DNA of 64,000 nt, from the IMG/VR virus record IMGVR_UViG_3300010882_000010; one strand, written 5' to 3'. This document shows, one piece after another, positions 6,038 through 61,988 of the stretch (the first letter of the stretch is position 1; the number at the start of each line of letters is the position of its first letter). Both the position numbers and the translations under genes were made by a program. The DNA comes from a virus (lineage: Duplodnaviria > Heunggongvirae > Uroviricota > Caudoviricetes). The notes under the pieces were generated by a model that was given only the letters and a program-made list of their open reading frames with translations, was not told the DNA's origin and did no database searches.

Positions 6038-6268
6038 ATGAATGAAGTACTTGAATTAACACCAGAAAATTTCTATGATTATTTTGATGATCCTCTTTTA
6101 GATGATGAATTGTTTGGAGATAAAAAACATTTTACACTTGAAGAGAAATTAAACAGTGGAAAAGAATCTTTTGATAATTTGGTATTATTAGGTTTGAAAA
6201 AACCGGAAGAATGGGATGAACACAAAAAAGAATTAACAAAATTTTATCAAGAACATGAACAAATTTGA
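6038..6268 (+). CDS. Hypothetical acidic protein
   Basis: ATG 6038 preferred over TTG 6008 because it follows the late-like GGTAAATAGTAA (6025-6036). Confidence 0.6.
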   Translation: MNEVLELTPENFYDYFDDPLLDDELFGDKKHFTLEEKLNSGKESFDNLVLLGLKKPEEWDEHKKELTKFYQEHEQI

Positions 6269-7106
6269 TCAATTTTTAAAAGGAGAAATTATTGTTGAAA
6301 AATCAATTAACAGATTTTTTTACATGATGGAAAATCATGATATTGCAACTATTAGTGGATGGAGAAAAGAAATTAAAGCACAACATCCTGGAATTTCTTT
6401 ATGGTATGGTTATCAACAGTATTTAGAAACTGGTGAACAAGTTAAAAGAAATAGTAAAGATAGTGCCAATAAAGAATTAGTACGAATGTTACAAAATTTA
6501 AAGTACGGAGTTACAAAAGTACAAGGTGGATATCCAGAAAATAATAATGGTAAAGTAAAACTTAATGATGCTGAAAATTCTTTCATAGTTGTTAATCTTA
6601 ATAATGATCCAAGTTTTCATCAAAATCTAATTAAAATAGCAGGATTTTTTAATCAAGATTCAGTTGGTTTTATTGATAAAGGAACAGAAGGAAACTTTTA
6701 CTTGGTTACTACTAATGATTCAGATGAAAATAGTCCATATGGTACTAAATTTTCAATTGGTAAAATGAAAAATGTTAATACTATTGAGTACTTTTTTACT
6801 AAAATCAAAGGTCATTATCTTTCAGCGATGGAAGAATCTTTAAATTCATTAACAAATCGTAATTTTCATGATTTTTTTGATTCAACAGATGAGATGTTTG
6901 AAGATGAAAAAAATCTTAATGGATGGTCTAGATTGGCTAAAAGAAAACAAACGTATGAAAATTTAAAGTCTCTTGATATTAAAGAAGCACGAGATTTCAA
7001 TGGACATACAGATGAAGAAAGAAGACAAGATCAAATTTTAGCAGAAGAAAACAATGCAAAAACTACAAGACCAAGTAAACTATTTCAAAATTTAGCAAAA
7101 TTTTAA
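6255..7106 (+). CDS. SAM lyase (T3 SAMase-like) with capsid-targeting-like N-terminus
   Basis: Motifs ISGWR, N..L...L, GGYPE, ENSFIV and FNQDSV parallel the T3 SAMase motifs (VSAFR, GCYRE, EKTVRV, WEQDCV; recalled from memory). N-terminus is MNKFDQFLKGE. Confidence 0.65.
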   Translation: MNKFDQFLKGEIIVEKSINRFFYMMENHDIATISGWRKEIKAQHPGISLWYGYQQYLETGEQVKRNSKDSANKELVRMLQNLKYGVTKVQGGYPENNNGKVKLNDAENSFIVVNLNNDPSFHQNLIKIAGFFNQDSVGFIDKGTEGNFYLVTTNDSDENSPYGTKFSIGKMKNVNTIEYFFTKIKGHYLSAMEESLNSLTNRNFHDFFDSTDEMFEDEKNLNGWSRLAKRKQTYENLKSLDIKEARDFNGHTDEERRQDQILAEENNAKTTRPSKLFQNLAKF

Positions 7107-7109
7107 CAT

Positions 7110-7751
7110 ATGAAACATCTTATTATAGCTGGACCAGATTGTGTAGGAAAGAATCTCTTAATTAAAAACATCATTAAGGATTTTGAGAATATTACAGTAC
7201 GTCATTTTACAGTTCCGAAAAATCTAAAACCGGGAGAGATAACCAATTATTGGAAAGATGAGTATTCTCATGCTTTGCATTTGGTTAATCATGCACGAAA
7301 AGAAGAAAAATGTCCACACAAACTTTACGTTTGGAATCGTTCTCATATCTGTGAAACTGTTTATGGTCCTCTTTATCGAAATTCAAACTCAGAATGGATT
7401 TGGAAAATGGAACAATTTTGGGATTTAGACAAAGAAGATGAAACTTACCTTATCTTACTTTATGCAGATCCTGAATTTATTGTAAAACAAGAAGATGGTG
7501 AATCCATTTCTAATGAACTTGAAAAGAGACAAAAAGAAGTTCAACTTTATCTTGAAGGATTTGAAAAATCAATTATCAAAAACAAGTTAAAACTTAAAGT
7601 AAATGAAGGAGATGAGTATGTGCCGGCAATAGGAATTTGGTACAAAGTTTCAAATTTCATTCATGGTTTGGATATTGATAAAATTATTGCAGAAAATTCA
7701 ACATCTTCACATGTTGAGCAATTAAAAGCACTTAACCGAAAGGAAAATTAA
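7110..7751 (+). CDS. Thymidylate/dNMP kinase-like P-loop protein
   Basis: IIAGPDCVGKN P-loop and WNRSHICETVYG (DR-motif equivalent). Confidence 0.75.
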   Translation: MKHLIIAGPDCVGKNLLIKNIIKDFENITVRHFTVPKNLKPGEITNYWKDEYSHALHLVNHARKEEKCPHKLYVWNRSHICETVYGPLYRNSNSEWIWKMEQFWDLDKEDETYLILLYADPEFIVKQEDGESISNELEKRQKEVQLYLEGFEKSIIKNKLKLKVNEGDEYVPAIGIWYKVSNFIHGLDIDKIIAENSTSSHVEQLKALNRKEN

Positions 7752-7768
7752 AATAACGACAAAGAAAA

Positions 7769-8173
7769 ATGAAAAAATTTCTAAAACTATTAGTAGTTGG
7801 ACTATTTTTTGGAATTTGCTTGACATCATGTAATTCATGTAACATGCAAAAACCTGAGTTCCAATTTAATGTGGATGTTTGTGGTGAATTCTTTGAACCT
7901 CAAACAGGTATTTCAGGAGAATTTGACAGTCACGTTTACAATTTTGTACTACCATTTAAAAATTTAGCAGATACCGAAGAAGAAATCAGAGAAGATGAAG
8001 TTACACCTCAGAAACAAAGTGAAATGGAAGATTGGTTAGACAAGTACTTTAAAGAACAAATTCTTAGTAACATGCCAGAAACATCAACTTACTCTATTAC
8101 AATTACAGGAATTTTAAGAGAAGCTAATACTGGAATTATGATTATGGTTAATAAAACATTCACAAAACCTTAA
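7769..8173 (+). CDS. Lipoprotein
   Basis: MKK + hydrophobic core + LTSC lipobox. Confidence 0.7.
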   Translation: MKKFLKLLVVGLFFGICLTSCNSCNMQKPEFQFNVDVCGEFFEPQTGISGEFDSHVYNFVLPFKNLADTEEEIREDEVTPQKQSEMEDWLDKYFKEQILSNMPETSTYSITITGILREANTGIMIMVNKTFTKP

Positions 8174-8175
8174 TC

Positions 8176-8514
8176 ATGAATAAGTTTGATAAGTTTTTGG
8201 CTGGGAATACAGATGAAATTAATGAGTACTTAAGTTTAAGAAAGTATTTTGTGGGTGCTCAAACTGTTACTCAACTTGATTTTTTAAAGAAAAGATTAGA
8301 AAGAGAAATTGAACAAGGTAATCGAGATAAAGTTCCTCCCAAAATAGTTGATTTTTTCTACAGAGAAAGACTTAATCAACTAGGTCCTGGTTCATCAAAA
8401 GATGATGAAACTGAAGTAAACAGGATAAATGCAGCAATGCAAGATTTGATAAGAAGTGAACAAATCAAAGCTCAACAAAATAGACCAACCGAGTTTGGAC
8501 CATTAGCTTTTTAG
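8176..8514 (+). CDS. Putative internal head protein
   Basis: N-terminus MNKFDKFL...EINE, nearly the same as that of 6255. Confidence 0.55.
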   Translation: MNKFDKFLAGNTDEINEYLSLRKYFVGAQTVTQLDFLKKRLEREIEQGNRDKVPPKIVDFFYRERLNQLGPGSSKDDETEVNRINAAMQDLIRSEQIKAQQNRPTEFGPLAF

Positions 8515-8566
8515 CAAAAAACTTAGTAAATTCAATAGTAAAAGTGAAGTTTTAGTTGTCAAAACT

Positions 8567-8595
8567 AAAACTTTTTTGATTCTCCGAATAGTAAT
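8567..8595 (+). promoter_or_regulatory. Early/middle-type promoter AAAACTTTT-N13-TAGTAAT
   Basis: Same motif and spacing as 952; implies the real start is ATG 8630. Confidence 0.65.
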
Positions 8596-8629
8596 AACCA
8601 ATTTAACAAGAACTTTAATTTTTAACACT

Positions 8630-9778: not shown

Positions 9779-9839
9779 TCAAAAAAAATTACTATAATAA
9801 CTCAACTAACTAACAATTACTAACTTAACTAAAGCCCGG

Positions 9840-9873
9840 AAACAAGAGATAACTTAAAATTGTCTCTTGTTTT
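9840..9873 (+). terminator. Intrinsic terminator
   Basis: 13-bp stem AAACAAGAGATAA/TTGTCTCTTGTTT with a 7-nt loop. Confidence 0.7.
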
Positions 9874-11029: not shown

Positions 11030-11045
11030 GGAATAGATAGTAAAA
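11030..11045 (+). promoter_or_regulatory. Late-type promoter GGAATAGATAGTAAAA
   Basis: Consensus copy 13 nt before ATG 11059. Confidence 0.7.
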
Positions 11046-11058: not shown

Positions 11059-11487
11059 ATGGGCAGAAAATCTTTTCATTATGATCAAGAAAGATTTAGT
11101 TGGTCTGAAATGTTTGCTAATGCAGAAACAGGTAAAACATCAGCAACAGGATTTACTGGTGTAATTTGTATTGGAGTTGGTTTACTTGGATTTATTGCAA
11201 GTTTTGTTTTCATGTTTTTGAACAAAAGATTAGGTGAAGCAAGTGGTGAAGCAATTTATCAGTCCATAATTTTAATTACAATAGGTGCAGCTTTACTTGG
11301 TGTTCGTAAACTTTCATTTTCAAAAGCAGGAGTGAATGCAGCAGATGATTATGTTGACAAACCGAGTACTGGAAATTCAGGTAATAATTCAGGAAATAAC
11401 AATAATTCCGGAGGTACAACCACAAAACCTAAAGCAAGTACAGCACCTCTAGAATATTATGATGGGGGTAGTTACTATGATAGTTAA
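11059..11487 (+). CDS. Two-TM membrane protein, holin-like
   Basis: Two hydrophobic helices, a low-complexity GNNS tail and a late promoter. Confidence 0.45.
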   Translation: MGRKSFHYDQERFSWSEMFANAETGKTSATGFTGVICIGVGLLGFIASFVFMFLNKRLGEASGEAIYQSIILITIGAALLGVRKLSFSKAGVNAADDYVDKPSTGNSGNNSGNNNNSGGTTTKPKASTAPLEYYDGGSYYDS

Positions 11488-11848
11488 AGGTTTTCAAACT
11501 TTTGAAGAGTTTCTTACTGAAAAATGGGGTGAATCTAAGTTACAAAAAGAACTACAACAAAAGTACAAAGATGTAATTAAATCTTTAACTATTCATGAAA
11601 ATGATGATTGTATTGACCTTAATTTTATTGTGATAAAGTCGGATGAAAGAGAAAAAGGATGGGGAGAGAAAATAATGAAGGATATTATTGCATACTCTGA
11701 AAAAGTTAAAAAACCTATCATACTTTCACCAGAAGACAGTCATGGAACTGAATTAACAAAACTAGAAAATTGGTACCGAAAGTTTGGATTTGAGTATGAA
11801 GATGGACAAAAGTATGGATATCTTTTTTGTATGGTACGAAATCCTTAA
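11477..11848 (+). CDS. GNAT acetyltransferase with capsid-targeting-like N-terminus
   Basis: REKGWG (motif A) and WYRKFGF (motif B). N-terminus from ATG 11477 is MIVKGFQTFEEFLTE. Confidence 0.75.
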   Translation: MIVKGFQTFEEFLTEKWGESKLQKELQQKYKDVIKSLTIHENDDCIDLNFIVIKSDEREKGWGEKIMKDIIAYSEKVKKPIILSPEDSHGTELTKLENWYRKFGFEYEDGQKYGYLFCMVRNP

Positions 11849-23058: not shown

Positions 23059-24249
23059 ATGAAAAAAAATCTTAATGGGCTCCAGGTGAACAAAAAAGTT
23101 TTGTTATCTGATCCCACAGACAAAGTTTTCTGTCAAGAAGATTATGCACAGGAACTTTACGACAAAATGTTCAATCATTCTAAATTGAACAACAGTCTTC
23201 CAAGAGGAGGCAAAGACCTAGAAAAAGGTCAATTTTTACCAATTACAGACATCTCATCTGTTTCAGAAAATGAAATTTGGTTTGAGGTAAACAACATGAC
23301 GGCAATTCCGGTTAACATCAACAAGGAAAAGCGATTTTTTGAGTATTTTGGATACACAAAAGATTCTTTCATTGATTGGGTACGTTTACCACAAGGACGT
23401 AAAGAGTTTTTAAAAGAGGAACATCTAGTTTACATCGAAAAAGCACAACCAAGTCCAAGTGGATCTTTATTTGAAGGATTGCAAAATATTGTTAAAACAG
23501 AGTTCTTTGATCAGATTAAAAATCCAACAAAAGCTTACTATGCAAAAGTTAACAGTAAGAATCAAGGTGGATTTTTCATTGAAGTACAAGGTATTCAAGC
23601 ATTTTTACCAGGTGGATTAGCAGCAGCTAACAAAATTGTGAATTTTGATTCTTACATCGGTAAAACTATTCCTGTAATGGTAGAAGATTATCTAGCAGAT
23701 ATTAACACTTTCATTTTCTCTAACAAGAAGTACATCCAACATGTACTACCAAAATTGGTGGCGGAACTTGATGTTACTAAAAAATTGCAAGGTTTTGTTA
23801 CCGGTACAAACAAACATGGTGTTTTCATTGAATTCGATGAAACGTTTACAGGTCTTTTGCATACCAGCAAAATGACACCAGGAACTAAAAAGTATTTTGA
23901 TGAACGCAGATTTCAACCGGGTGATGAAATGGAAGTTTGGGTAATTGAAATTAACAGAAGTAATCAATTAGTACTTTCTGAGTACGAAAGAGGTGCTGAA
24001 GAAAACTATGAAAAAAGTTTACTCGAACAAGGTGTTGTTTATCCATGTGAACTTACAGCAATCCGAGATTTTGGTATTTTTGTTAAACTAACAGGAAATG
24101 ATAAAGAAGGTAATCCAAGAAAAGAGATTGGTTTGATACCATCTAAATCTGACAACAATTATCTTTTCAATGTTGGAGACACTACAAAGAAAGTTAGGTT
24201 AAAAAACACAAGAGAAGGTAAACACTATTTTGAGTTTGCTACAAACTAA
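23059..24249 (+). CDS. Ribosomal protein S1-like multi-S1-domain protein
   Basis: Three S1/OB repeats: GGFFIEVQGIQAFLPG, HGVFIEFDETFTGLLHTS and DFGIFVKL. Confidence 0.85.
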   Translation: MKKNLNGLQVNKKVLLSDPTDKVFCQEDYAQELYDKMFNHSKLNNSLPRGGKDLEKGQFLPITDISSVSENEIWFEVNNMTAIPVNINKEKRFFEYFGYTKDSFIDWVRLPQGRKEFLKEEHLVYIEKAQPSPSGSLFEGLQNIVKTEFFDQIKNPTKAYYAKVNSKNQGGFFIEVQGIQAFLPGGLAAANKIVNFDSYIGKTIPVMVEDYLADINTFIFSNKKYIQHVLPKLVAELDVTKKLQGFVTGTNKHGVFIEFDETFTGLLHTSKMTPGTKKYFDERRFQPGDEMEVWVIEINRSNQLVLSEYERGAEENYEKSLLEQGVVYPCELTAIRDFGIFVKLTGNDKEGNPRKEIGLIPSKSDNNYLFNVGDTTKKVRLKNTREGKHYFEFATN

Positions 24250-25189: not shown

Positions 25190-25205
25190 GGAATAAATAG
25201 TGAAA
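25190..25205 (+). promoter_or_regulatory. Late-type promoter GGAATAAATAGTGAAA
   Basis: Motif copy heading the amidoligase operon. Confidence 0.7.
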
Positions 25206-25227: not shown

Positions 25228-26655
25228 ATGGCACAAAAACAGTACACAAGAGAAGAGATTTTACAAGGTAGTAAAATTGGAATAGAGTTTGAATTTTTAA
25301 CAAACATGGATCCGGTTGATACAGCAAGAAGTCTTTCAGATGCAATTGAAAAACGTGTGCTTGTTCCTCTAAATGTTGATGAATTCACAAAGTCAGAAGG
25401 AAAATTAAAGTATCATACACCAATTGATTTGGTTGGTATGCCATGGATGTGCAAACTTGAATCTGATTATTCTTGTGGAAAGAAAGGTAATGAACTTATC
25501 ACAGCGCCTCTTCCATATCAAGATGCTAGAAACACAATACTTAGAGTTTGCAAATGGATTAAGCAACATGGTTGGACTACAGATAGATGCTCTATGCACT
25601 TAAACATCTCATTTGATGATAATTACGTTAAAACTAAAACAGAAATTAGGCATATCAATGTTTTAAAATTTTGTCTTGATTTTGATGAAAACAAAGTGTA
25701 TGCCGAATTTCCTAATAGAAAAGATTCTATCTATGCTAATTCCATTAAAAAGTTGATTACCAATAATATCTTTAATACTACGATTACTACTAATAGTCAG
25801 TTAATTACACCAAATGAAAAGTATTATGGTGTTAATTTTACCAAAGCTTTCAAAGATTACTTAGAGTTTCGTTATTTAGGATGTAAAGACTATGAAAACA
25901 AAGTAACTACTATTATTGATATGATGGATTATTTTATTGAGTTTACTTTCAACATCTTGCAAAATCCAGAAGTTACTGAAAAAGAAAACAAGGAATTACA
26001 GGTTACTTTAGAAAACTACAAAAAAGTTTTGGAAGTTTATCGAAATCCTATGCTATTAAAGTCTAATTTTCCAAAATTGCAAATTATGGTAGATACTCAA
26101 GAAGATAGTAAAATTATTAAAACTTTTTGGGGTACTATTAAAGATAAAGTTCTTGAAGCACTATTAAAGTGTAATATCCATGAAGGAATTATCAACTATG
26201 ATAGTGATATTTCAGAATTACAACTAAAAGATTGTGTTTTAAAATTTGGTACAATTGAAGATGTTACTTTAATTGGTTGTAGTGGAAACGGGTTTGTTAA
26301 AAATTGCAAAATTTTTGATTGTAATTTTGAGGATGTTAACTTTACCGATTGTTGGTTTTTCACAGGTTCTAAAGTAAAAGACAGTCAATTAAAAAATTGC
26401 ATAGTAAAACCTAGTAATGAGTTTAATAATTGCTACATTCAAAATGAAAAACAATTTCTCTTTGCTGGAATAATGAATGGTGGGGTTTTTAGAAAAGGAC
26501 CTATTTCAAAAGATGCCGAAATTTCATCAAGTACTGATATTATTGAACACAAAGTTGTAACAGCAAATCCAAACGTGAAAAAGTTTGGGATTTACGTTAG
26601 CCCTGACAAAGGAACTTTTCAAAACAAAAAACTTTTCGTAACAAAAGGAAAATAG
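25228..26655 (+). CDS. Putative amidoligase (COOH-NH2 ligase) with C-terminal beta-helix repeats
   Basis: IGIEFEF, ESDYS, ELIT, CSMHLNIS, KYYGVN and LEFRYLG motifs; Cys/Asn pentapeptide-like C-terminus. Confidence 0.8.
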   Translation: MAQKQYTREEILQGSKIGIEFEFLTNMDPVDTARSLSDAIEKRVLVPLNVDEFTKSEGKLKYHTPIDLVGMPWMCKLESDYSCGKKGNELITAPLPYQDARNTILRVCKWIKQHGWTTDRCSMHLNISFDDNYVKTKTEIRHINVLKFCLDFDENKVYAEFPNRKDSIYANSIKKLITNNIFNTTITTNSQLITPNEKYYGVNFTKAFKDYLEFRYLGCKDYENKVTTIIDMMDYFIEFTFNILQNPEVTEKENKELQVTLENYKKVLEVYRNPMLLKSNFPKLQIMVDTQEDSKIIKTFWGTIKDKVLEALLKCNIHEGIINYDSDISELQLKDCVLKFGTIEDVTLIGCSGNGFVKNCKIFDCNFEDVNFTDCWFFTGSKVKDSQLKNCIVKPSNEFNNCYIQNEKQFLFAGIMNGGVFRKGPISKDAEISSSTDIIEHKVVTANPNVKKFGIYVSPDKGTFQNKKLFVTKGK

Positions 26656-26656
26656 T

Positions 26657-27805
26657 ATGGAAATTAGAGGATTTAAATCATATGACCAATTTCTCTTAGA
26701 GAAAGATAGTTCAAAAATAATACCAAAAGAAAGTACTGAATTTGATAAGAAAGTTGGTTTTATCAAACTTTCTCATGATATGAGTGCACTTGATGGAGGT
26801 ACTACAGGGAGACAGCTTTGGATGAATCAAGCAGCTTTAAACAAACTTTATCTAACCTATTCTACTCTTGAAGATTTAGATAAAGATATCAAAGTTCCTA
26901 CTGATATTCCTATGCTTAATTATGGCGGACACAGTAAACAAGAAACTAAAGATTTTATCAAAAAACACAAAATACCAACAGAAAATCTTTACAATAAGGG
27001 AGAGTTTACTAAGCTTTCAGGTTCTAAAGTAGAATTCGCAAAAATTTTCAAAGGAAAAGATTGGTTGCCTAAAACTGTTTTTAATAGAGATGAAGCAATT
27101 AATGGACAAGTTGGATTTCCTGTTATTGCAAAAATCGAAGATGGACATAGTGGATTGGGAATTAAAAAATTTGATACTAAAGAAGATTTAGAAAAAGAAC
27201 CTAAAACGTTTACACTTAGAGGTGATGAAAGAACTTTTGATCTTTACTCACAATTCATCAACTTTGATCGCGAATATCGTTGTATTTTCATAGATGGCAA
27301 GTGTGTAATTGTTAATGAAAGAGTTGATAACATAAAAGAAGACAAATCCATACGAACTAAAAAACTAAATCAAAAATTGAAGTTCATCTATGTTGAACAA
27401 GATTTTGATAAAATACCAAAAGAATGGTTAGAAAAAGTCAACAAAATTGCAAAAGAAATTTCTAAAGAAATTCCACTTGAAGCTTGGTCGCTTGATATTA
27501 TTGTAGACAAAGAAGGTAAGATTTGGGTTTGTGAAATCAATTCAGCAACAGGATTAGGAAGTGGAAAGCTTTGTAAGTACTACATGACTATTTACGAAAA
27601 TTTCTACAAAAAACAATTACCACAAGAATTTAAGGATGAGTTGTTTACGAATTTCATATCACAAGGATACATCCAATTTTGGCCAGAGAAAAAGAAAGAA
27701 ATTGAATCAAGTCCTTGGGCTATTGATTATGCAAAAATAGCAAAAGATTATCCAGAAATACCAGATCAATGGTACAAAGACAGATTAGAAGGAAGCAAAA
27801 ATTAA
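26657..27805 (+). CDS. ATP-grasp ligase (RimK-like) with capsid-targeting-like N-terminus
   Basis: FPVIAK..GHSGLGI, QFI...EYR and LDII......VCEINS motifs. N-terminus is MEIRGFKSYDQFLLE. Confidence 0.8.
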   Translation: MEIRGFKSYDQFLLEKDSSKIIPKESTEFDKKVGFIKLSHDMSALDGGTTGRQLWMNQAALNKLYLTYSTLEDLDKDIKVPTDIPMLNYGGHSKQETKDFIKKHKIPTENLYNKGEFTKLSGSKVEFAKIFKGKDWLPKTVFNRDEAINGQVGFPVIAKIEDGHSGLGIKKFDTKEDLEKEPKTFTLRGDERTFDLYSQFINFDREYRCIFIDGKCVIVNERVDNIKEDKSIRTKKLNQKLKFIYVEQDFDKIPKEWLEKVNKIAKEISKEIPLEAWSLDIIVDKEGKIWVCEINSATGLGSGKLCKYYMTIYENFYKKQLPQEFKDELFTNFISQGYIQFWPEKKKEIESSPWAIDYAKIAKDYPEIPDQWYKDRLEGSKN

Positions 27806-27813
27806 AACAAAAC

Positions 27814-29034
27814 ATGACAGGAACACAACTATTTGAGAATTTTTTGAATGAAAGATCTTTAAAATCGGATTTCCAAAATATCAAAAATTACAGAGACTAC
27901 CGATATTACAACACCTACTTTTACTTTACCGAGTCTACTGATAAAATTTTTATCATGGATTTTCTAAGTAAAAAAGAAGATGAAATTTTTGGGACAAGTA
28001 ATTTCAATGTAGAAGATTTGCAAATGCACATCGAACAGAAAATACCAAATTTTAATTTCTCTGATGCTTTAATTTTAACTTTCTTAGTTGAACAAGCTTG
28101 TTATGGAGATATTGACCAATTAAAAAATGAAGCAAGAACTAAAGTAGAATTTTTGCAAGAATCTGGTAAAGTCATGACGGTTGAAGACATCTTTAATAAT
28201 CGTGCAAAACTTTTCAAAATTATTGGAGGACGTAAAGGTTCATTTCCAGAATTTTCAAATCTTAAACTAAAAGATATCATTAAAATTTTACCATTATTTG
28301 AGTCCAAACTCATAGAGAAAATTCAAGATCCACGCGAAATGCGAAAATTTACGAAAGCTGATGTTTTGAAAATGTTTAATCCTGCTTATGCTAAGTTTAT
28401 TGTAGACAGTATGGGAAATGGTCCTTATTTTAGGATAGATGGTGAAATGGGCTTTAAACATCAAGATCCTGAATTTGATACAATTGATAAGGAAACAATA
28501 GGAAAGTTTAATGCTAATCCAAATACAGGAAGTTTTAAAGATCCTCAAAATGGAAACAAATCAACTATTGGTCACTATATCGTTAATGGAAAAGATGTTG
28601 TTAGAAAAGAACATGAAAAAGGAGGTGTTACTTATTGGATTAACTACAAAGACAAAGAAAAATTATTAGAATCTAAAGTTTACGAAGCACCTATTGCTTA
28701 TCTTCCAGATAATACTGTTTCTTTTGATATTCGGATTGATTCAACAGTACACTCTGAAGAACGCAAAACTCGTCACAGTACTGAACATCCTATTACAGAT
28801 GAACAAATTGTAGAAGTAATCAAAAAAGCATTAGAACCTATTGCAAAAGATCAACTTACCGGAGAAGATGACCTTGGACAAAAATATCACATCTATGCTC
28901 CTAAATACTATCACCTTAATATCATAGGTCAATTTGGTAGAGATAAAGGAAAGCTTGTTTTTAGAGTAATCACAGTAATGGAAACACCAAAATTTTATCC
29001 ATCTGCAGATGCTAAAACAATTAAAGTAAATTAA
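27814..29034 (+). CDS. Putative internal-head polyprotein with a C-terminal BECR/DUF4258-like domain
   Basis: ATG 27814 gives MTGTQLFENFLNE; internal L/V-x-E pairs (LFE..LIE, LLE..VYE); last domain has HSEER..R and FRVITVM. Confidence 0.5.
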   Translation: MTGTQLFENFLNERSLKSDFQNIKNYRDYRYYNTYFYFTESTDKIFIMDFLSKKEDEIFGTSNFNVEDLQMHIEQKIPNFNFSDALILTFLVEQACYGDIDQLKNEARTKVEFLQESGKVMTVEDIFNNRAKLFKIIGGRKGSFPEFSNLKLKDIIKILPLFESKLIEKIQDPREMRKFTKADVLKMFNPAYAKFIVDSMGNGPYFRIDGEMGFKHQDPEFDTIDKETIGKFNANPNTGSFKDPQNGNKSTIGHYIVNGKDVVRKEHEKGGVTYWINYKDKEKLLESKVYEAPIAYLPDNTVSFDIRIDSTVHSEERKTRHSTEHPITDEQIVEVIKKALEPIAKDQLTGEDDLGQKYHIYAPKYYHLNIIGQFGRDKGKLVFRVITVMETPKFYPSADAKTIKVN

Positions 29035-29051
29035 AATTAAACTACAATATT

Positions 29052-29468
29052 ATGAAAAGCAGAATACAATCATTAAATGAATACACCAATTATGCTCAAG
29101 AAATTACAGGTAGAACTTCTGGTAGTGTAATGATGAGTTCTTTAGATATTGATGGAATGGCACAAAACTTTCAAATGACACCAAAACCTGTTAAAGTAGA
29201 ATTTGTTACCGGAATTATTGATCCCGGGGCTAAATCTTTTGATTTAACTTTAGATCTTACTGATAAAATGGTTTTCGGTGCCACTTGTGCAAATTGGGAT
29301 GATTACAAAGGTTTTGTTTTCTTAGAACAAAAAGCAGGTGGAAGAGCTAAATCTAAAATTCCAGTTAAAGAATTTAGAAAATGGTATGATAGAGATAAGC
29401 TTGTCATCTACAATTTAATGATTTTAATTTGTCAAGAATTTTATCCTAATTGGATATGGACCATTTAA
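29052..29468 (+). CDS. Putative internal head protein
   Basis: N-terminus MKSRIQSLNEY; last gene of the late operon. Confidence 0.5.
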   Translation: MKSRIQSLNEYTNYAQEITGRTSGSVMMSSLDIDGMAQNFQMTPKPVKVEFVTGIIDPGAKSFDLTLDLTDKMVFGATCANWDDYKGFVFLEQKAGGRAKSKIPVKEFRKWYDRDKLVIYNLMILICQEFYPNWIWTI

Positions 29469-29474: not shown

Positions 29475-29500
29475 AAAGACCTCACTTAGAGGTCTTTTTT
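29475..29500. terminator. Bidirectional terminator between convergent genes
   Basis: AAAGACCTC-ACTTA-GAGGTCTTT followed by TTT. Confidence 0.8.
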
Positions 29501-29502
29501 CA

Positions 29503-31421: not shown

Positions 31422-31508
31422 ATACTACTTTTTACTATTTATTCCGAATTATTTTGAAGTTAAAATTATTGGTCAAAATAATTCGGAATAAATAGTAAAA
31501 AGTAGTAT
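31422..31508. repeat. Perfect 36-bp inverted repeat carrying back-to-back late promoters
   Basis: 31422-31457 is the exact reverse complement of 31473-31508 (15-nt spacer). Promoters at 31430-31445 (-) and 31485-31500 (+). Confidence 0.95.
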
Positions 31509-52600: not shown

Positions 52601-52890
52601 ATAAAAATATTATTGAAATTTTTGAAATTGATAGTATTTTACTTTATACAAAAGAAGAAATAAGATCTTATGAAATAAATGAAGATGAAAATAATATAAT
52701 TCCAGAACGTTTTTATACTTTAAGATTAGAAGAAAGTGAAGTGGATTTAATAAAACAAGGTTTTAGAAGAGATAAATCATTTATATTTGAGAAAAATGAT
52801 ATTGATAAATTATTAGCAAAAATTACAGTTTTCTTAGATACAAATCTTTATAAGAATATAGGAATTGTTACAAAATTAAAGAGAATATAA
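46657..52890 (+). CDS. Very large virion structural protein
   Basis: 2077-aa uninterrupted ORF in the late operon; compositionally distinct (TATA-rich). Confidence 0.6.
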   Translation: MSITKPWYYVNFPNDLYFNGKTVRFLRLVIEDETEEIKGLIGDIYACLVPVWLGNENNENNLFKNKEIISQYNINGVNAIDYFETIWDDKIQISTKFYGTNDFIFGSGGMNVPKEDKWQKISYGNFYEWRIDYYGEKTERIKFVLLLSKELPEKIDEIIGNQLDPNDIGNFGIKDYFSEYTGTEFGPFLDYVDVDILGIAYDKVDNKVNISEYQLDDKAIFENKTSNMLIRTNPLLSGNIKVTVDSENNVWLNSIDANNDLANSRYKRYKVSPLSQYATDLYRFFDNGQTPPDIVFDLKQYDSEYKFTKQEYYLQYDNFYGCGVQRMSNRLYSEEFSFLAPIWLKKTLPEFFVIFKVDHPISLASYNNEEDKEILKDVFKNASILKTFDLREGTKIGNYLRNIVNNIRFKEEPLFITFDKESLSTWSGISYNDGNVTEKGENLYNIFTVDRTIKEFEEYITEGFKRHSIICQNLINLEFLFNDDISEEYSINRYFGFFVNEIELDRFNPSEIILTKLFEQNPTPRKGIDVVPYNMNSFYQENKNGVVLPLIESDKNKFTLENDTDNFLTKFSEDKGKILTVRNRDNEFYRIQDIQNREDYKEIKLYDNKVDISKFAGIDKFSSMLKADLLDESSAQMVIHLYDTNKDQYIFKPGELLTIEWQENSEFHKWEMIANETAIQPEDWWDFPIYNNDTFTYQNTFNPKGRPEQVAKAIAGCINQFNSNQFEAIAIDNKVFIITIKKFVGGNLFKLKRTFVEGSSIMNVKYYDKEPEVKQLYNYKDYTVQYDRVTEEDILLDSTLILGNIKLNSENKPAELEREYFDIEIEVLKLKNIVVSELPEKGNSNYFYHHFIKEDEENEGIDLYYIWIQNEFKIAEFLDEYTSYNFIGGNSRKRNRAKIEIINGSNIEENDWFQCQSQKFSKIKSFEIGISRDLKNQFVTNTIIVLPYLDEPIRGKGGKLLGFQDLERFVSIQLNDDFEFYTTKESYISAYKIFKTPISILSVLPIKDFDFDFFFSDYSYTPTVELLKYFEFYELKKGEEVELSNNEFFRVIGGGGTLLGYKNGVWKDICEFSEILGENVFNTIPLVLEYQVKIEDPGDVPNDFRTYKVIDKFEKFKVIALENIKDTKIVKYLYSQQWNDKDFNAKRKVTLDNLDYSMLDFPGFSGLKGLITESGDLLQLKLKENEDFRRFLLPFLKTEYDYLLENENKYFVSKSRVVPYINKWVHSGTDVHDNNYRLNISNAFGLTNFSPSTEILVDPSLFTHEWYYLDRHPENYPIEFLENSRSYMFSKLDEIPFPIPEKGKIERKHGKTWKELFYFSREDDPNYFLKYFTEGYPTNISHENLIIKEKSERYVFTEFIKGLNQVHCLFRGARLRINELDNLGEIIKNSKKYQGYKFTSILTLKTKEFYKYTPPISIEVIDNQRFKTITFIISVFIQDYKLKDHLSYSSLYTLNSVQKIDSAFRNNYSENIFIDDRRKIMSNNQFVSVADYDDTQINLMFRPVGNIDIDRKRLKDNNLIEESFIQKDLGNLEEIFNLKTEEIEENQIIDFTHICSFDKFLNKSYDPLPFIIATISTFFSNFGYKFKFNAFLPIEGNIRKSIFDLLSNFIIVDWTAIPSTKKILDYIQYSKNNNFNNNFNFIISINNDNTTEVFALNGGKDYNKEIGELISFNNIKNFINFNNKLVEYISIESNGTIHNSKKGDQVFSLEFIEPNEFAKFDIMQPIIDSDIPSELKTHQVIGYDTKKVNTFKKLQRYGGFYGPKSKNILKYNLSEKDTVNKFFEKDFTLLNTTLNFDITNNSIIKNLSINKITPDSIPIITGELTYFNKYPLVNKVAIDNKNHNIVLSNWDNNYYRDYSINSTDFEEIEGIKEMQEIKSYFGGKVMNIKKEYKLDQFNNQEFKIELISPTGNNINTKESTKNTFDGGQLKLEISLDLRNRMIRYLFADNIEKEFYWVKNNSNSSFSEKTSNEISGIVQNYIDKNIIEIFEIDSILLYTKEEIRSYEINEDENNIIPERFYTLRLEESEVDLIKQGFRRDKSFIFEKNDIDKLLAKITVFLDTNLYKNIGIVTKLKRI

Positions 52891-57362: not shown

Positions 57363-57662
57363 ATGAGAATAGTAAAGTTTGAAGATTTTGTTAATGAATC
57401 AAGTTTTGAAGTTCAAAATGCTAATAGAAAAGAATTAATTGTTATTCTTAAAGAACTTGCAGATAATAAAGAAATTTCGGAATTATATCAAGAACCTCAT
57501 TGGGACAATACTAAAAATGGTGTAATGATAGGATTTACAACAAGAAAAGATAGTGAATTGGTTAAAAAACATCTTAAAAAATTAGGATGGAAAGTAGATG
57601 CATGGTATAATACAGTAGCATATCCAAATCATCCATTTAAACTTGAAGTAGATAGAAAGTAA
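57363..57662 (+). CDS. Putative internal head protein
   Basis: N-terminus MRIVKFEDFVNE closely resembles the T4 capsid-targeting sequence. Confidence 0.6.
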   Translation: MRIVKFEDFVNESSFEVQNANRKELIVILKELADNKEISELYQEPHWDNTKNGVMIGFTTRKDSELVKKHLKKLGWKVDAWYNTVAYPNHPFKLEVDRK

Positions 57663-59954: not shown

Positions 59955-60502
59955 TGATACTCAGTGCAAAAAACAATAATTTTCGAGTTGAATTAAGTTC
60001 TGAGTTTTTTGATGAAGAAGTTATCAAAAAGTACGAGTTTGTTATTAAAAACTTACCATCTCCATACAAAACAATTAGAAATTACATCAATGCAGGTATT
60101 CAAGAATTTAGTCTACCGAGTATCAGTTTACCTATTGTAGAGCAAGTTAACATCCATAATGTGGTAACACCGTGGAAGGGAAAGGGTAATATGGAGTATA
60201 ATACAGAAAAAGATATGAATATTACATGGAAATTATATGAAGGATATTTGAATTGGTTTATAATGCAAGATATTTTACAAAATTTTTATAAATATACACA
60301 AAGAAAACAATTTATGCCGGATATTATTTTAAGTTTATTAGATAATCAAGGATATGAATTAGTTGCTATTAAATATACTGGAATAATTTATTATGGTATA
60401 TCTGAATTAAATTTAAGTTTTTCTTCAAATATACCAGAGTTTAATACATTTACTTGTAATTTTAGAGCAAGAGATTTTGAAATTTTAAGAAGAATACAAT
60501 AA
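59954..60502 (+). CDS. Tail tube-fold protein (gp19/gp3-like)
   Basis: IQEFSLPSISL, ITWKLYE..LNW..M, LSLLD and FTCNF pattern. Confidence 0.6.
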   Translation: MILSAKNNNFRVELSSEFFDEEVIKKYEFVIKNLPSPYKTIRNYINAGIQEFSLPSISLPIVEQVNIHNVVTPWKGKGNMEYNTEKDMNITWKLYEGYLNWFIMQDILQNFYKYTQRKQFMPDIILSLLDNQGYELVAIKYTGIIYYGISELNLSFSSNIPEFNTFTCNFRARDFEILRRIQ

Positions 60503-60518
60503 ATTATTTTTAAAAGAT

Positions 60519-60528
60519 GAATATATAA
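60519..60528 (+). promoter_or_regulatory. Late-type promoter variant GAATATATAA
   Basis: Resembles the GAATARATA consensus but contains TATA; lies in a TATA-rich island. Confidence 0.4.
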
Positions 60529-60552
60529 TTTAAAAGTAATTGTATATTCTTT

Positions 60553-61624
60553 ATGAAAAAAGACGAATTAAAAGTATTATTTAAAGATAAAAATAATAAA
60601 CGTATAAAGAAAAATCATTATAAGATTTATTTACAATATAAAGAAGAAATTGATAAACTTTTTCCAAATGTTAGTACAGATTTACATTTAGAAAAAGTTT
60701 ATTTACTTTTTAATAATTTAGAAGAGCCACCTAAATGTCCTATTTGTAATGAAAATCGAAAATTTCAAGGAAAATTTTATTATGATACATGTTGTAAAAA
60801 AGACTGTATTTTTAAATTAAAATCAACAATATTAAAAGAATTATATCAAAATAGATCAGAAGAAGAAAAACAACAAACTATCGAAAAAAGAAAAGAAACA
60901 AATAATATAGTTTATGGGGGTAATTCTTCAATGAGTTTATTAGAAATTAGAGAAAAAGTAAGTAATTCACATCAAAATAGATCAGAAGAAGAAAAACAAC
61001 AAACTATCAAAAAAAGAAAAGAAACAAACTTAGATCTTTATAATGTTGAATTTCCATTACAATATAAAGAATTTAGTGACAAACAGAAAAATTCATTAAA
61101 TGAAAAATCAGATGAAGAATGGATAGAAATAATAAATAAAAGAAATATTACAAATTATTTAAAAACTGATGAAGAAAAACAATTAACAAAAGATAGAAGA
61201 AAAGAAACATTTTTAATTAAATATGGTGTTGAAAATCCATCGCAACTTTTTGATGTTCATATAAAACAACAAAAAAGAGCGGGCAAAAAATAATAAAATT
61301 AAATTACCTAATGGATTAATATATCAAGGGAGTTATGAATTAGATTTTCTTGAATATTGTAAAGAATTAAATTTATTAAATAATTTAGAAAATGCTCCAA
61401 GAATAACTTATAATTTTAATAATAAAAATCATTATTATTTTCCCGATTTTTATATAAGATCTTTAAATTTAATAATTGAAATAAAATCTTGGTATACCTA
61501 TGAATTAAATAAAGAAGAATGTAAATTAAAAGAAAAAGAAACTATTAATCAGGGATATAAATATCTATTAATTATGGATAAAAACTATACTGAATTTAAT
61601 AAATACATAGATAAAATAAGTTAA
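60553..61624 (+). pseudogene. Free-standing homing-type endonuclease (Zn-finger + repeats + PD-(D/E)xK), split by a +1 frameshift
   Basis: ORF 60553-61293 has CPIC..CC..C and KETN...YG repeats. Frame +1 at 61289-61624 encodes YQGSYE..F...HYYFPDFYI...IIEIKS. Removing one A from the A6 run at 61285-61290 fuses them. Confidence 0.75.
60845..61028 (+). repeat. 58-nt direct repeat (period 126 nt) inside the endonuclease gene
   Basis: 60845-60902 vs 60971-61028, one mismatch; encodes QNRSEEEKQQTI(E/K)KRKETN. Confidence 0.9.
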
Positions 61625-61628
61625 TAAG

Positions 61629-61988
61629 ATGAGTAGTATAAAAACGTTTAATCAAGTTATAGTAGAAGAATTGAGATTCAGTCCAGAAAGACGATCAATG
61701 ATTTTTGAGAATGAGCAGATAGAACACCTATCAGATGAACAAGTAAAGGAAAGTGAAGAGATGTACCAAAAATTACAGGAACACTTTGAAAAAGGTGGAA
61801 CATGGGATAATCTTGATGAAGGAATTTTAGGAGCAATAGTAGGTACAATAACAGGTGCAACCATTGGTCCAAAAATTGGTGGATGGATATGCTCGGCTCT
61901 CGGAATCACAAAAGGTTTATTATGGGATTTGTTCAATAGTAGAATTTTTACTACATCTGTTGGTTTAATAGCAGGAAAAAGACTTTAA
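61629..61988 (+). CDS. Putative processed virion protein: acidic propeptide + glycine-zipper membrane peptide
   Basis: N-terminus MSSIKTFNQVIVEE; L-D-E then GILGAIVGTITGATIG... Confidence 0.6.
   Translation: MSSIKTFNQVIVEELRFSPERRSMIFENEQIEHLSDEQVKESEEMYQKLQEHFEKGGTWDNLDEGILGAIVGTITGATIGPKIGGWICSALGITKGLLWDLFNSRIFTTSVGLIAGKRL

What the first reader, a model, noticed from the sequence alone, without database searches (positions are those of the whole stretch)
6255..61988. Dispersed capsid-targeted enzyme payload: about 8 genes share a T4 internal-protein-like packaging signal
Seen: otherwise unrelated ORFs begin with the same pattern, M-x(1-6)-(F/Y)-x2-F-(L/V)-x(1-2)-E. Clear cases: 6255 MNKFDQFLKGE, 11477 MIVKGFQTFEEFLTE, 26657 MEIRGFKSYDQFLLE, 27814 MTGTQLFENFLNE, 57363 MRIVKFEDFVNE. 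8176 (MNKFDKFL...EINE) has a longer spacer, and 29052 (MKSRIQSLNE) and 61629 (MSSIKTFNQVIVE) are looser. Most lie downstream of late-type promoters. Established: T4 internal proteins use the N-terminal sequence MKTYQEFIAE for packaging, are cut by the gp21 prohead protease after (L/I)-x-E, and are injected with the DNA. Inference: this phage tags a catalytic toolkit (SAM lyase, GNAT, ATP-grasp ligase, RNase-like polyprotein, membrane peptide and three unknowns) for delivery at the moment of infection. That would be a modular anti-defence/host-takeover system defined by a signal peptide rather than by a gene cluster.
Basis: partly seen in the sequence, partly recalled or inferred. Interest (0 to 1): 0.9.

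Follow-up and report, generated by a model that had tools for sequence, protein, structure and literature searches.

The report
T4-style capsid-loading tag, massively expanded
An uncultured 218-kb T4-like jumbo phage puts a short "load me into the capsid" peptide, a longer cousin of the phage T4 signal, on about 35 otherwise unrelated proteins including several enzymes, so much of what it probably injects into its host can be read straight from the sequence.

Summary
Genome-wide, about 35 of 308 genes begin with M-K-Q-R-I-x-x-(F/L)-(E/D/N)-x-(F/Y)-(I/L/V)-x-E, where about 1.4 would be expected by chance. Most lie in two arrays outside the window, one directly beside a gp21-type (S77) prohead protease fused to a scaffold, and a gp23-type capsid gene.

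In the window:
- 11477, 27814 and 57363 fit strongly.
- 61629 and 26657 fit significantly.
- 29052 is a variant.
- 6255 (SAM lyase) and 8176 carry a tag-derived form ending in Gly, not Glu, so their status is open.

The four most conserved tag columns match the four T4 CTS residues shown experimentally to govern targeting (4, 7) and processing (8, 10). A profile built only from metagenomic tags hits T4 solely at ipII and ipIII.

Relatives carry 16 to 63 tags per genome. The ATP-grasp and a RelE-like module are conserved tagged cargoes. 27814 looks like a two-module polyprotein.

Packaging, cleavage and injection are inferred, not shown. The link to "late" promoters is not supported.

This scan has noted similar tags on other phage DNA before. 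Verdict: a new variant of a known kind.

The parts
11477..11848 (+). Tagged GNAT-like protein (123 aa). The tag is 11477-11521 (MIVKGFQTFEEFLTE), with the predicted cut after Glu15.
   Evidence: Independent PSSM 20.4, above the null maximum of 16. Pfam Acetyltransf_7 23.8 bits, below the cut-off of 27. Atlas viral GNAT clusters 0.96. No sequence homologs found.
26657..27805 (+). Tagged ATP-grasp ligase (382 aa). The tag is 26657-26701 (MEIRGFKSYDQFLLE).
   Evidence: Pfam Dala_Dala_lig_C 29.9 bits against a cut-off of 24. PSSM 8.4, p = 2.8e-4. 76 homolog clusters, nearly all starting with a canonical tag such as MKYVKLFEEFIYE.
27814..29034 (+). Tagged two-module cargo (406 aa). The tag is 27814-27852 (MTGTQLFENFLNE). 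Module 1 runs to the internal joint ...KVYE291|A (Glu codon 28684-28686). Module 2 (28687-29031) is a RelE/BECR-like domain.
   Evidence: PSSM 19.0. The C-terminal domain is shared with 60 mostly ~125-aa proteins, nearly all tagged. Glu-ending joints are conserved in multidomain homologs. AF2 pLDDT 83. Fold Z 4.5-5.8 to RelE/ParE/RegB/CdiA-CT, tentative.
29052..29468 (+). Variant-tagged 138-aa protein of unknown function. The N-terminus is MKSRIQSLNE|Y (29052-29081).
   Evidence: The upstream half, M-K-x-R-I, is canonical, and L-N-E is present. A twin N-terminus, MKQRIKSLNEY, occurs at G000 rc 147804. Core-only PSSM 4.9, marginal. No family match.
57363..57662 (+). Tagged 99-aa protein of unknown function. 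The tag is 57363-57398 (MRIVKFEDFVNE).
   Evidence: PSSM 18.3, above the null maximum. Soluble, mature pI 8.9. No family match.
61629..61988 (+). Tagged 119-aa protein with a glycine-zipper-like hydrophobic C-terminal half. The tag is 61629-61667 (MSSIKTFNQVIVE).
   Evidence: PSSM 11.0, p = 1e-4. Sequence read (maximum Kyte-Doolittle 19-residue window 1.29 at residue 65).
6255..7106 (+). SAM lyase family protein (283 aa) with a tag-derived N-terminus in the exact T4 10-residue register (MNKFDQFLKG), ending in Gly and not Glu. Membership is open.
   Evidence: Pfam S-AdoMet_lyase 41.1 bits against a cut-off of 28. PSSM 6.8 with no terminal Glu. Its two homologs start MNKTEKFLGA and MNITEKFQGE, with no canonical tag.
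8176..8514 (+). 112-aa protein of unknown function sharing only its first 10 residues with 6255 (MNKFDKFLAG). It has the same Gly-ending variant, and the next I-N-E is at residues 15-17. Membership is open.
   Evidence: blastp of 6255 against 8176 matches only residues 1-10, 8/10 identical. PSSM -1.1. The G001 homolog reads ...RKRIPSFDDYKGM..., a canonical tag start followed by K-G-M where I-N-E is expected.
25228..26655 (+). Untagged amidoligase that heads the operon containing three tagged genes (context).
   Evidence: Pfam Amidoligase_2 24.3 bits against a cut-off of 22. Promoter-like motif at 25192.
25192..25205 (+). Promoter-like motif (GG)AATAAATAGTGAAA, 36 nt upstream of 25228. A similar copy lies at 11032-11045, upstream of 11059, the gene before tagged 11477.
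   Evidence: Motif scan. The motif is not enriched before tagged genes genome-wide.

Best explanation
The shared N-terminus is a capsid targeting sequence of the phage T4 type.

Proposed mechanism:
1. The tag's two aromatic/aliphatic positions (-6 and -3 from the terminal Glu) dock the newly made protein onto the scaffolding core of the prohead.
2. Once the gp23-type shell has closed, the gp21-type serine protease is active. Here it is fused to the scaffold in one 692-aa protein.
3. The protease cuts after the invariant Glu, in the context (I/L/V)-x-E.
4. That frees the cargo inside the head, while the scaffold itself is chopped at its many similar sites and leaves.
5. The cargo stays with the DNA and is most likely expelled into the host with it.

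This phage applies the device to about 35 genes. In the window the cargo includes an ATP-grasp ligase, a GNAT-like acetyltransferase, a two-module protein ending in a RelE-like (possibly RNase) domain that is probably cut again at an internal joint, a glycine-zipper protein and two unknowns. The Gly-ending form on the SAM lyase and on 8176 may target without being cut at that position.

Shown here: the tag, its statistics, its conservation, the protease, the capsid protein and the matching site patterns. Inferred: docking, cleavage, residence in the virion, and injection.
For: (1) Enrichment: 22 strict-motif N-termini against about 1.4 expected, a bimodal PSSM with about 35-39 genes, and window candidates scored with a PSSM trained outside the window.

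(2) The cargo bodies are unrelated: only 6 weak blastp pairs among 39.

(3) Selection acts on the peptide. Ile codons ATT/ATA/ATC are used 13/12/7 times, and substitutions are conservative (F/L/Y, I/L/V, E/D/N).

(4) Machinery:
- Peptidase_S77 at 55 bits.
- It aligns to T4 gp21 (5jbl), with His in GELDHPD and Ser in GISSRAAG.
- It is fused to a repeat-rich scaffold; the 692-aa protein has 34 (LIVFM)-x-E sites.
- Gp23-type capsid protein at 137 bits, whose only such site between residues 20 and 120 is HALNE43|SS.

(5) A 19-gene tagged array directly abuts the protease gene.

(6) Match to T4 genetics. The most informative tag columns in the T4 register are 0 (E), -3 (F/Y), -6 (F/L) and -2 (I/L/V). 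These correspond to T4 IPIII residues 10, 7, 4 and 8, which govern processing (8, 10) and targeting (4, 7) (PMC9026906).

(7) A profile of 25 metagenomic tags hits the whole T4 genome at only two places, the N-termini of ipII and ipIII. The T4 CTS sequence itself is confirmed in PMC8442874.

(8) Conservation in relatives:
- 63 profile hits in a 425-kb relative with a 66% identical capsid protein.
- 16 in LR756500.
- 21 and 27 in two further contigs.
- 182 tagged of 1,799 genes in 66 loci, against about 20 expected.

(9) G001 and LR756500 also encode S77 proteases in long frames.

(10) The RelE-like module is preceded by a Glu-ending tag when it is N-terminal, and by a Glu-ending joint when it is internal.
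Against: - There is no experimental evidence for any of these proteins in a virion, for cleavage, or for injection, and no cultured member carries the tag.
- The cargoes are acidic to neutral (median pI 5.7, 14% above 8), whereas the T4 internal proteins are highly basic.
- No portal gene was found in this 75%-complete record.
- The T4 profile hits are marginal in E-value (0.045 each).
- Thirty-five or more cargo species is far more than in T4, so some may be assembly-core parts and not delivered effectors.
- 6255 and 8176 lack the P1 Glu.
Confidence: 0.75

Rival explanations
1. The tag is a T4-type targeting and cleavage signal, but most tagged proteins are parts of the assembly core (like T4 gp67/gp68 or the scaffold) that are degraded or expelled during maturation. 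They would not be effectors delivered to the host. The enzymes would then act inside the prohead or not at all after injection.
For: The largest array (19 small, mostly orphan genes) sits directly beside the protease-scaffold and capsid genes. Cargoes are acidic, like scaffold proteins, and unlike DNA-bound internal proteins. Most have no recognisable enzyme domain.
Against: Several tagged proteins are enzymes or toxin-like modules with no obvious assembly role: the ATP-grasp, GNAT-like, UPF0227 esterase-like and RelE-like proteins. In T4, proteins cut once next to the CTS stay in the head, and foreign CTS fusions are delivered to the host (PMC8442874; PMC9026906).
Confidence: 0.15
2. The shared leader is a recognition sequence for a modifying enzyme, as in RiPP systems or graspetides, where an ATP-grasp ligase binds a conserved leader. 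Here that enzyme would be the neighbouring ATP-grasp/amidoligase pair, and the leader would not be a capsid signal.
For: An amidoligase and an ATP-grasp ligase are encoded together in the window. Among genomes fetched through the capsid protein, those with tags (G000, G001, LR756500) have the ATP-grasp and those without tags (PTm1, Lak-C1, MaF61) lack it.
Against: - The ATP-grasp itself carries the tag in nearly all of its 76 homolog clusters. That fits cargo and does not fit an enzyme bearing its own substrate leader.
- T4 has the tag, with experimentally shown capsid targeting, and is not among the two phage records that match this ATP-grasp.
- The tagged bodies range from 50 to 920 aa and share no core peptide.
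- The invariant terminal Glu and the matching capsid and scaffold sites point to the protease.
- The co-occurrence involves few, related genomes.
Confidence: 0.05
3. The tag directs proteins somewhere other than the capsid interior, for example to a different virion part, a membrane or a replication compartment, or it is a general docking helix for a hub protein.
For: Targeting to the head is inferred by analogy only. The hydrophobic moment of the tag as a helix is only modestly above shuffled controls (0.40 against 0.31 +/- 0.16). Window copies lie among tail- and baseplate-type genes.
Against: The tag has no signal-peptide-like hydrophobic core or basic n-region. The determinant positions coincide with those of the T4 CTS. 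The ipII/ipIII profile hits, the adjacency to the protease, scaffold and capsid genes, and the invariant Glu matching S77 specificity all point to the head.
Confidence: 0.04
4. The shared N-terminus is a by-product with no protein-level function. It could be a relic of duplication and recombination between genes, or an mRNA element around the start codon.
For: A-rich codons after the start codon are common in this Shine-Dalgarno-less genome. Two adjacent genes have identical tag DNA (MKIPLFEDFINE and MRIPLFEDFINE).
Against: Synonymous codons vary freely while the residues are kept. The tag is conserved across phages whose capsid proteins are only 66% identical, and across dozens of metagenomic contigs. 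The bodies are unrelated.
Confidence: 0.01

Closest known systems
Phage T4 capsid targeting sequence (CTS, MKTYQEFIAE) on internal proteins IPI/IPII/IPIII (and Alt), removed by the prohead protease gp21
   Same: - A short N-terminal propeptide shared by unrelated proteins.
- Aromatic residues at CTS positions 4 and 7, an aliphatic residue at 8 and Glu at 10.
- An S77 protease and a gp23-type capsid protein are present.
- A profile of this clade's tags finds T4 ipII and ipIII.
   Different: - The tag is 12-15 residues long, with an extra conserved M-K-Q-R-I prefix.
- About 35 tagged genes (about 12% of genes), not 3-4.
- The cargo is acidic to neutral and not basic, and includes enzymes and a probable polyprotein.
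- The protease is fused to the scaffold in one 692-aa protein.
- The host is probably a member of Bacteroidota (inferred from the relatives).
Polymorphic internal-protein loci of T-even phages (Repoila et al. [quoted passage not shown]
   Same: Diverse, fast-evolving cargo genes keep only the CTS. Tagged genes lie in arrays, and the idea that the CTS is an evolutionary device for loading varied proteins is already stated in print.
   Different: The scale is different: arrays of 12 and 19 genes here, and 63 hits in a relative. The cargo is non-basic. The tag is found in uncultured huge phages far from the T-evens (capsid protein matched to T4 gp23 only at E = 4e-7).
Ejection and inner-body proteins of phiKZ/SPN3US-type giant phages, processed by gp175/gp245 at S/A-x-E
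   Same: Many head proteins are cut after Glu by a related protease (our protease also gives a weaker Peptidase_S80 match, 24.4 bits). Large amounts of protein are packaged and ejected (PMC5694885, PMC9026906).
   Different: In those phages the propeptides are mostly long (over 100 residues) and not a shared short tag. Here one short consensus tag is reused on dozens of genes, and the P3 preference is I/L/V as in T4.
RiPP and graspetide leader peptides recognised by ATP-grasp ligases
   Same: A conserved N-terminal leader sits on variable downstream sequences, and an ATP-grasp ligase is encoded nearby.
   Different: The bodies are full-size unrelated proteins. The ligase itself bears the tag. 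The tag ends in a protease-type Glu site that is also present in the capsid protein and scaffold. T4 uses the same tag without such a ligase.

Membership tests
T4-type CTS / prohead-protease cargo system | A short (10-20 aa) N-terminal propeptide shared by otherwise unrelated proteins | tested here: met
   About 35 genes with a 12-15 aa tag. Bodies are unrelated by all-against-all blastp.
T4-type CTS / prohead-protease cargo system | Determinant residues as mapped in T4 IPIII: positions 4 and 7 for targeting, 8 and 10 (Glu) for processing | tested here: met
   The most informative columns, -6 (F/L), -3 (F/Y), -2 (I/L/V) and 0 (E), coincide with T4 positions 4, 7, 8 and 10 (PMC9026906).
T4-type CTS / prohead-protease cargo system | A gp21-type (Peptidase_S77) prohead protease is encoded by the phage | tested here: met
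   PF03420 at 55.1/52.5 bits, above the cut-off of 27. Aligns to T4 gp21 5jbl at E = 1.6e-6, with His and Ser at two positions that are Ala in the crystallised chain. That those are the catalytic residues is from my memory.
T4-type CTS / prohead-protease cargo system | A gp23-type major capsid protein with an N-terminal propeptide ending in the same cleavage context | tested here: met
   PF07068 at 136.9 bits. The single (LIVFM)-x-E site between residues 20 and 120 is HALNE43|SS, and T4 residue 85 aligns to residue 84 here. The cut itself is predicted.
T4-type CTS / prohead-protease cargo system | Sequence similarity of the tag to the T4 IP propeptides | tested here: met
   Profile A4 (metagenomic tags only) hits T4 only at the ipII and ipIII N-termini, E = 0.045 each, marginal but exclusive.
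T4-type CTS / prohead-protease cargo system | The tag is removed by the protease, and the mature protein resides in the DNA-filled head and is ejected | not testable with these tools
   Needs virion mass spectrometry or in vitro cleavage. No cultured tag-bearing phage was found.
T4 internal proteins (IPI-III) in the narrow sense | Small, highly basic, DNA-associated cargo | tested here: not met
   Mature cargo has a median pI of 5.7, only 13.5% are above pI 8, and sizes run from 51 to 921 aa.
SAM lyase (PF23780), gene 6255 | Pfam match above the gathering score | tested here: met
   41.1 bits against a cut-off of 28, residues 68-188.
Tagged cargo set, genes 6255 and 8176 | Tag ends in (I/L/V)-x-Glu in register | tested here: not met
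   Both end F-L-x-Gly. The G001 homolog of 8176 likewise ends K-G-M. The SAM-lyase homologs have no canonical tag.
ATP-grasp ligases, gene 26657 | Pfam match above the gathering score | tested here: met
   Dala_Dala_lig_C at 29.9 bits against a cut-off of 24. PHROG 2599 at E = 2e-13.
GNAT acetyltransferases, gene 11477 | Pfam match above the gathering score, or an equivalent | tested here: inconclusive
   Acetyltransf_7 at 23.8 bits, below the cut-off of 27. The Atlas gives viral GNAT clusters at 0.96 with 207/256 features shared. No sequence homologs found.
RelE/ParE (BECR) fold RNase toxins, C-terminal module of 27814 | Fold match clearly above background, and catalytic residues | tested here: inconclusive
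   Foldseek best E = 0.05. VIA Z 4.5-5.8 to ParE, RelE, HigB, YafQ, BrnT, RegB and CdiA-CT, which is below the tool's Z of 8 caution line. Invariant His, Arg, Asn and Thr residues are present.

The most novel reading that the evidence does not exclude
A whole clade of uncultured huge phages, probably infecting Bacteroidota, devotes 10-15% of its genes to capsid-loaded cargo that can be listed from sequence alone by one short tag. The cargo would include enzymes (ATP-grasp ligase, GNAT, esterase-like), RelE-like toxin modules and multi-module polyproteins that the head protease cuts at tag-like joints. A Gly-ending tag variant (on the SAM lyase and on 8176) would load proteins without releasing them. 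That would make the phage head a programmable, modular effector-delivery device on a scale not described for T4.
Probability: 0.35. Interest if true: 0.8.

Novelty: new variant of a known kind. Interest (0 to 1): 0.62.

Why it matters
Which proteins a phage injects together with its DNA is usually learned only from virion proteomics of cultured phages. If this tag works as in T4, then:

- The injected or head-internal proteome of many uncultured jumbo and huge phages can be predicted from sequence.
- That yields a ready list of candidate first-minute host-takeover and anti-defence factors, most of them orphans.
- It identifies a portable tag for loading foreign proteins into non-E. coli phage heads.
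- It shows that the T4 device is old and has been scaled up tenfold in other lineages.

Tried and rejected
- **Nucleotide search:** megablast of the structural block against GenBank phages found no match.
- I used the search for related loci with an ATP-grasp alignment instead.
- **Complex prediction:** scaffold part (residues 160-692) with the tagged 57363 protein gave no verdict (score 0.00). This is no evidence either way.
- **Portal:** not found with Pfam Portal_T4 or with the PTm1 portal protein. The record is about 75% complete.
- **GNAT homologs:** the search for 11477 found only the protein itself.
- **Fold search:** Foldseek against the PDB gave nothing at E <= 0.001 for the 27814 C-terminal module.
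- **Other relatives:** the tag profiles found nothing convincing in Tenacibaculum phage PTm1, Prevotella phage Lak-C1 or Flavobacterium phage MaF61. Their immediate capsid-gene neighbourhoods have no tagged array.
- **SAM lyase in relatives:** no homolog in G001-G003.
- **Late promoters:** T4-type TATAAATA is rare (11 + 8 copies). The recurrent GGAATAAATAGTAAAA motif is not enriched before tagged genes and is absent at the head of the main array.
- **Cargo annotation:** Pfam and PHROGs on 20 out-of-window cargoes found almost nothing.
- **False positive:** the strict regex also picked up one gene whose N-terminus looks like translation factor IF-1 (that identification is from memory).
- **Procedural:** one alignment (A3) contained mis-registered rows and was rebuilt as A4.

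Full report
**What the window is**

The window is about 30% G+C, nearly all its genes are on one strand, and it has no Shine-Dalgarno sequences. It is part of a single 217.7-kb virus record, linear and about 75% complete. The record has no close nucleotide match among GenBank phages.

By capsid protein, its nearest named relatives are:
- an uncultured 462-kb phage, LR756500 (44% identity);
- the Prevotella Lak megaphages (about 40%);
- Tenacibaculum phages PTm1 and pT24 (33%);
- a Flavobacterium phage (30%).

A Bacteroidota host is therefore likely. This is an inference.

**Checking the observation**

Across the whole genome the pattern is much stronger than the window suggests.

- The strict core [FY]xx[FVIL][LVI]xE lies within the first ~20 residues of 22 of 308 called genes. 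Its internal frequency is 4.6e-4 per position, which predicts about 1.4. One of the 22 looks like an IF-1 false positive.
- An iterated PSSM splits the N-termini into two groups: about 35-39 genes score 12 or more, and the rest score below 2.
- The consensus is M-K-Q-R-I-x-x-(F/L)-(E/D/N)-x-(F/Y)-(I/L/V)-x-E.
- Most copies lie outside the window in two arrays. One has about 12 genes (G000:C1 about 181.5-194.8 kb). The other is an unbroken run of 19 genes (C1 about 102.1-110.8 kb) that ends directly at the prohead protease gene.

To avoid circularity I retrained an 8-column PSSM on 28 tags outside the window and scored the window candidates against 49,531 internal positions:

| Candidate | Score | Note |
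|---|---|---|
| 11477 | 20.4 | above the null maximum of 16.0 |
| 27814 | 19.0 | above the null maximum |
| 57363 | 18.3 | above the null maximum |
| 61629 | 11.0 | p = 1e-4 per position |
| 26657 | 8.4 | p = 2.8e-4 |
| T4's own CTS | 7.4 | for comparison |
| 6255 | 6.8 | motif ends in Gly |
| 29052 | 4.9 | marginal on the core |
| 8176 | -1.1 | fails |

**Is it a peptide signal?**

- The bodies behind the tag are unrelated. Only six weak blastp pairs occur among 39 proteins.
- Codons vary while residues are kept. Ile is encoded by ATT, ATA and ATC 13, 12 and 7 times, and replacements are conservative. Selection is therefore on the peptide, not on the DNA or mRNA.

**The machinery**

- The genome encodes a Peptidase_S77 (T4 gp21-type) domain at residues 18-149 of a 692-aa protein.
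- It aligns to the T4 gp21 crystal structure, with His (GELDHPD) and Ser (GISSRAAG) at two positions that are Ala in the crystallised chain. That those are the catalytic residues mutated for crystallisation is my recollection, not a tool result.
- The remainder of the protein is a repeat-rich, Glu-rich scaffold (EKIAEDHNYL repeats). The whole 692-aa protein has 34 (L/I/V/F/M)-x-E sites.
- PTm1 annotates the same fusion as "prohead core scaffolding protein and protease".
- The next gene is a gp23-type capsid protein. T4 residue 85 aligns to residue 84 here. The only candidate site between residues 20 and 120 is HALNE43|SS, which ends like the tags (I/L-N-E).

**Link to the T4 CTS**

The literature establishes the following:
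- The T4 CTS is MKTYQEFIAE. The internal proteins are cut once next to it, and CTS fusions are packaged (PMC8442874; PMC3012670).
- Only the first 10 residues of IPIII are needed. Residues 4 and 7 govern targeting, and residues 8 and 10 govern processing. Asp at position 10 blocks processing but not targeting (PMC9026906).

In this phage's tags the most informative columns in the T4 register are 0 (Glu), -3 (F/Y), -6 (F/L) and -2 (I/L/V), which are exactly T4 positions 10, 7, 4 and 8.

Independently, a profile built only from 25 metagenomic tags (none from this genome or from T4) hits the six-frame T4 genome at just two places. Both are the N-termini of ipII and ipIII. The E-values are marginal (0.045), but the hits are exclusive to those two genes.

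**Distribution**

- A 425-kb, 97%-complete relative (capsid protein 66% identical) has 63 matches to this genome's tag profile and an S77 protease in a 689-aa frame.
- The window's ATP-grasp protein has 76 homolog clusters, and nearly all begin with a canonical tag such as MKYVKLFEEFIYE or MIPIKLFEEFLYE.
- Sixty-six viral contigs fetched through that enzyme carry 182 tagged genes of 1,799, against about 20 expected. In one 21-kb stretch, 16 of 34 genes are tagged.
- LR756500 has 16 hits and an S77 protease.
- PTm1, Lak-C1 and MaF61 show none or one marginal hit. No cultured phage has the tagged ATP-grasp.

**The window's cargo**

- **26657** is an ATP-grasp ligase. It follows an untagged amidoligase at 25228.
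- **11477** is GNAT-like. Pfam is just under the cut-off, and the Atlas scores 0.96.
- **27814** has an orphan N-terminal part and a C-terminal module of about 115 residues.
  - The module is shared with 60 mostly ~125-aa proteins, almost all of which start with a tag.
  - In longer homologs the module is preceded, in the same register, by a tag-like joint ending in Glu (for example NSFSEFLFE|K and LFDKFINE|N). In the window protein the joint is LLESKVYE291|A.
  - This supports a two-module cargo cut at an internal site.
  - The module folds confidently (pLDDT 83). It resembles RelE/ParE/HigB/YafQ toxins, BrnT, T4 RegB and CdiA-CT RNase domains only at modest scores: Foldseek E of 0.05 or worse, Z 4.5-5.8. 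"RNase-like" is therefore a lead and not a finding.
- **61629** has a glycine-zipper-like hydrophobic C-terminal half.
- **57363** and **29052** are unknowns.
- **29052** has the canonical M-K-x-R-I start and an L-N-E, and it has a twin N-terminus elsewhere in the genome.

**The two doubtful members**

- 6255 (SAM lyase; Pfam 41 bits) and 8176 share only their first ten residues, 8/10 identical. The sequence is M-N-K-F-D-(Q/K)-F-L-x-G.
- This is in exactly the T4 10-residue register, with aromatics at positions 4 and 7 and Leu at 8, but Gly at position 10.
- The G001 homolog of 8176 reads ...RKRIPSFDDYKGM.... That is the canonical start of that phage's tag, followed by K-G-M where I-N-E is expected.
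- These therefore look like tag-derived N-termini that have lost the P1 Glu. By analogy with the T4 Asp-10 mutant, they might be loaded but not cut there.
- Against this, the two SAM-lyase homologs lack the aromatic at position 4.
- I put membership of 6255 at roughly 40%.

**What does not fit T4**

- Mature cargoes are acidic to neutral (median pI 5.7), whereas the T4 internal proteins are basic.
- There are ten times as many of them.
- The tag has an extra conserved M-K-Q-R-I prefix.
- No portal gene was found in this incomplete record.

**Promoters**

- TATA is strongly depleted (604 against about 3,180 expected), and TATAAATA is rare.
- A motif, GGAATAAATAGTAAAA, lies 23-37 nt before many start codons. 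These include the protease-scaffold gene and the heads of the units that hold 11477 and 26657/27814/29052.
- It also precedes non-structural genes, it is missing at the head of the main tagged array, and tagged genes are not enriched downstream of it (16/36 against 100/250).

**Rivals**

- The main rival for function is that many tagged proteins are assembly-core parts and not delivered effectors.
It is unlikely. The ligase itself carries the tag, T4 uses the tag and is not among the phage records matching this ligase, and the terminal Glu matches sites in the capsid protein and scaffold.
- The complex prediction of scaffold with a tagged protein returned no verdict.

**Earlier notes and novelty**

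Earlier notes of this scan report similar tag families on other phage DNA and in another window of this genome. I treated those as leads only.

In the searchable literature I found the concept (the T4 CTS as a way to load varied proteins) but no description of an expansion of this size, or of this clade. The literature search covers open-access papers only.

Noticed in passing
window 4419, 11032, 13755, 14293, 25192, 31443(-), 31487, 39733, 52895 (start of AATAAATAGTAAAA): A recurrent promoter-like element, GGAATAAATAGTAAAA, lies 23-37 nt upstream of start codons. Two divergent copies face each other at 31443/31487. It precedes both structural and non-structural genes. Its temporal class is unknown.
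   Followed up: partly
whole genome (G000): The tetramer TATA is about five-fold depleted (604 against about 3,180 expected) in this 30% G+C genome. The T4 late-promoter octamer TATAAATA is rare (11 + 8 copies).
   Followed up: partly
G000:C1:100027-102105 (- strand), outside the window: The prohead protease (S77, residues 18-149) is fused to a long scaffold in one 692-aa protein. The scaffold has tandem ~14-residue EKIAEDHNYL-type repeats, and the whole protein has 34 (LIVFM)-x-E sites. G001 and LR756500 have similarly long frames (689 and 635 aa).
   Followed up: partly
window 46657-52890, about 48010-48042: The 2077-aa ORF contains an internal tag-like sequence ending in Glu at residue 462 (TIKEFEEYITE|G; PSSM 13.3). 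It could be an internal protease site in a very large protein.
   Followed up: no
window 25228-29468: An operon: untagged amidoligase, tagged ATP-grasp, tagged two-module protein, variant-tagged unknown. The amidoligase plus ATP-grasp pairing recalls predicted peptide- or protein-ligation systems. The target is unknown.
   Followed up: partly
L017 (Prevotella phage Lak-C1) 7600(+), 40451(-), 41584(-): Three Lak-C1 genes (402, 348 and 349 aa) share a different N-terminus, MNK(L/Q)I(K/R)xL(L/I)E(S/N)LFDD. They could be paralogs, or this could be a diverged tag in megaphages that lack the tag studied here.
   Followed up: no
protein P0103 (homolog of the 27814 C-terminal module): A 303-aa homolog joins an Acb1/2H-phosphoesterase-like N-terminal domain (24.7 bits, below the cut-off of 27) to the RelE-like module. 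This hints that anti-CBASS-type enzymes may ride the same cargo architecture in other phages.
   Followed up: no
G000 rc 29487-30230 (C1 187471-188214, - strand), outside the window: A 247-aa ORF headed by the promoter-like motif has a full canonical tag (MEKRIGTLADFINE) starting at an internal Met near residue 110. This is either a second start or an internal joint.
   Followed up: no
window 23059-24249 and 29503-30648(-): An S1 RNA-binding domain protein (51.6 bits), and an alanine dehydrogenase/PNT-type protein on the opposite strand, sit amid virion-type genes.
   Followed up: no
G000 rc 38415-38630, outside the window: A 71-aa ORF whose N-terminus looks like translation initiation factor IF-1. 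It matched the strict tag regex by chance. The IF-1 identity is from memory and was not checked with a tool.
   Followed up: no
whole genome (G000): No portal gene was detected with Pfam Portal_T4 or with the PTm1 portal protein. It may lie in the missing ~25% of the genome or be too diverged.
   Followed up: partly
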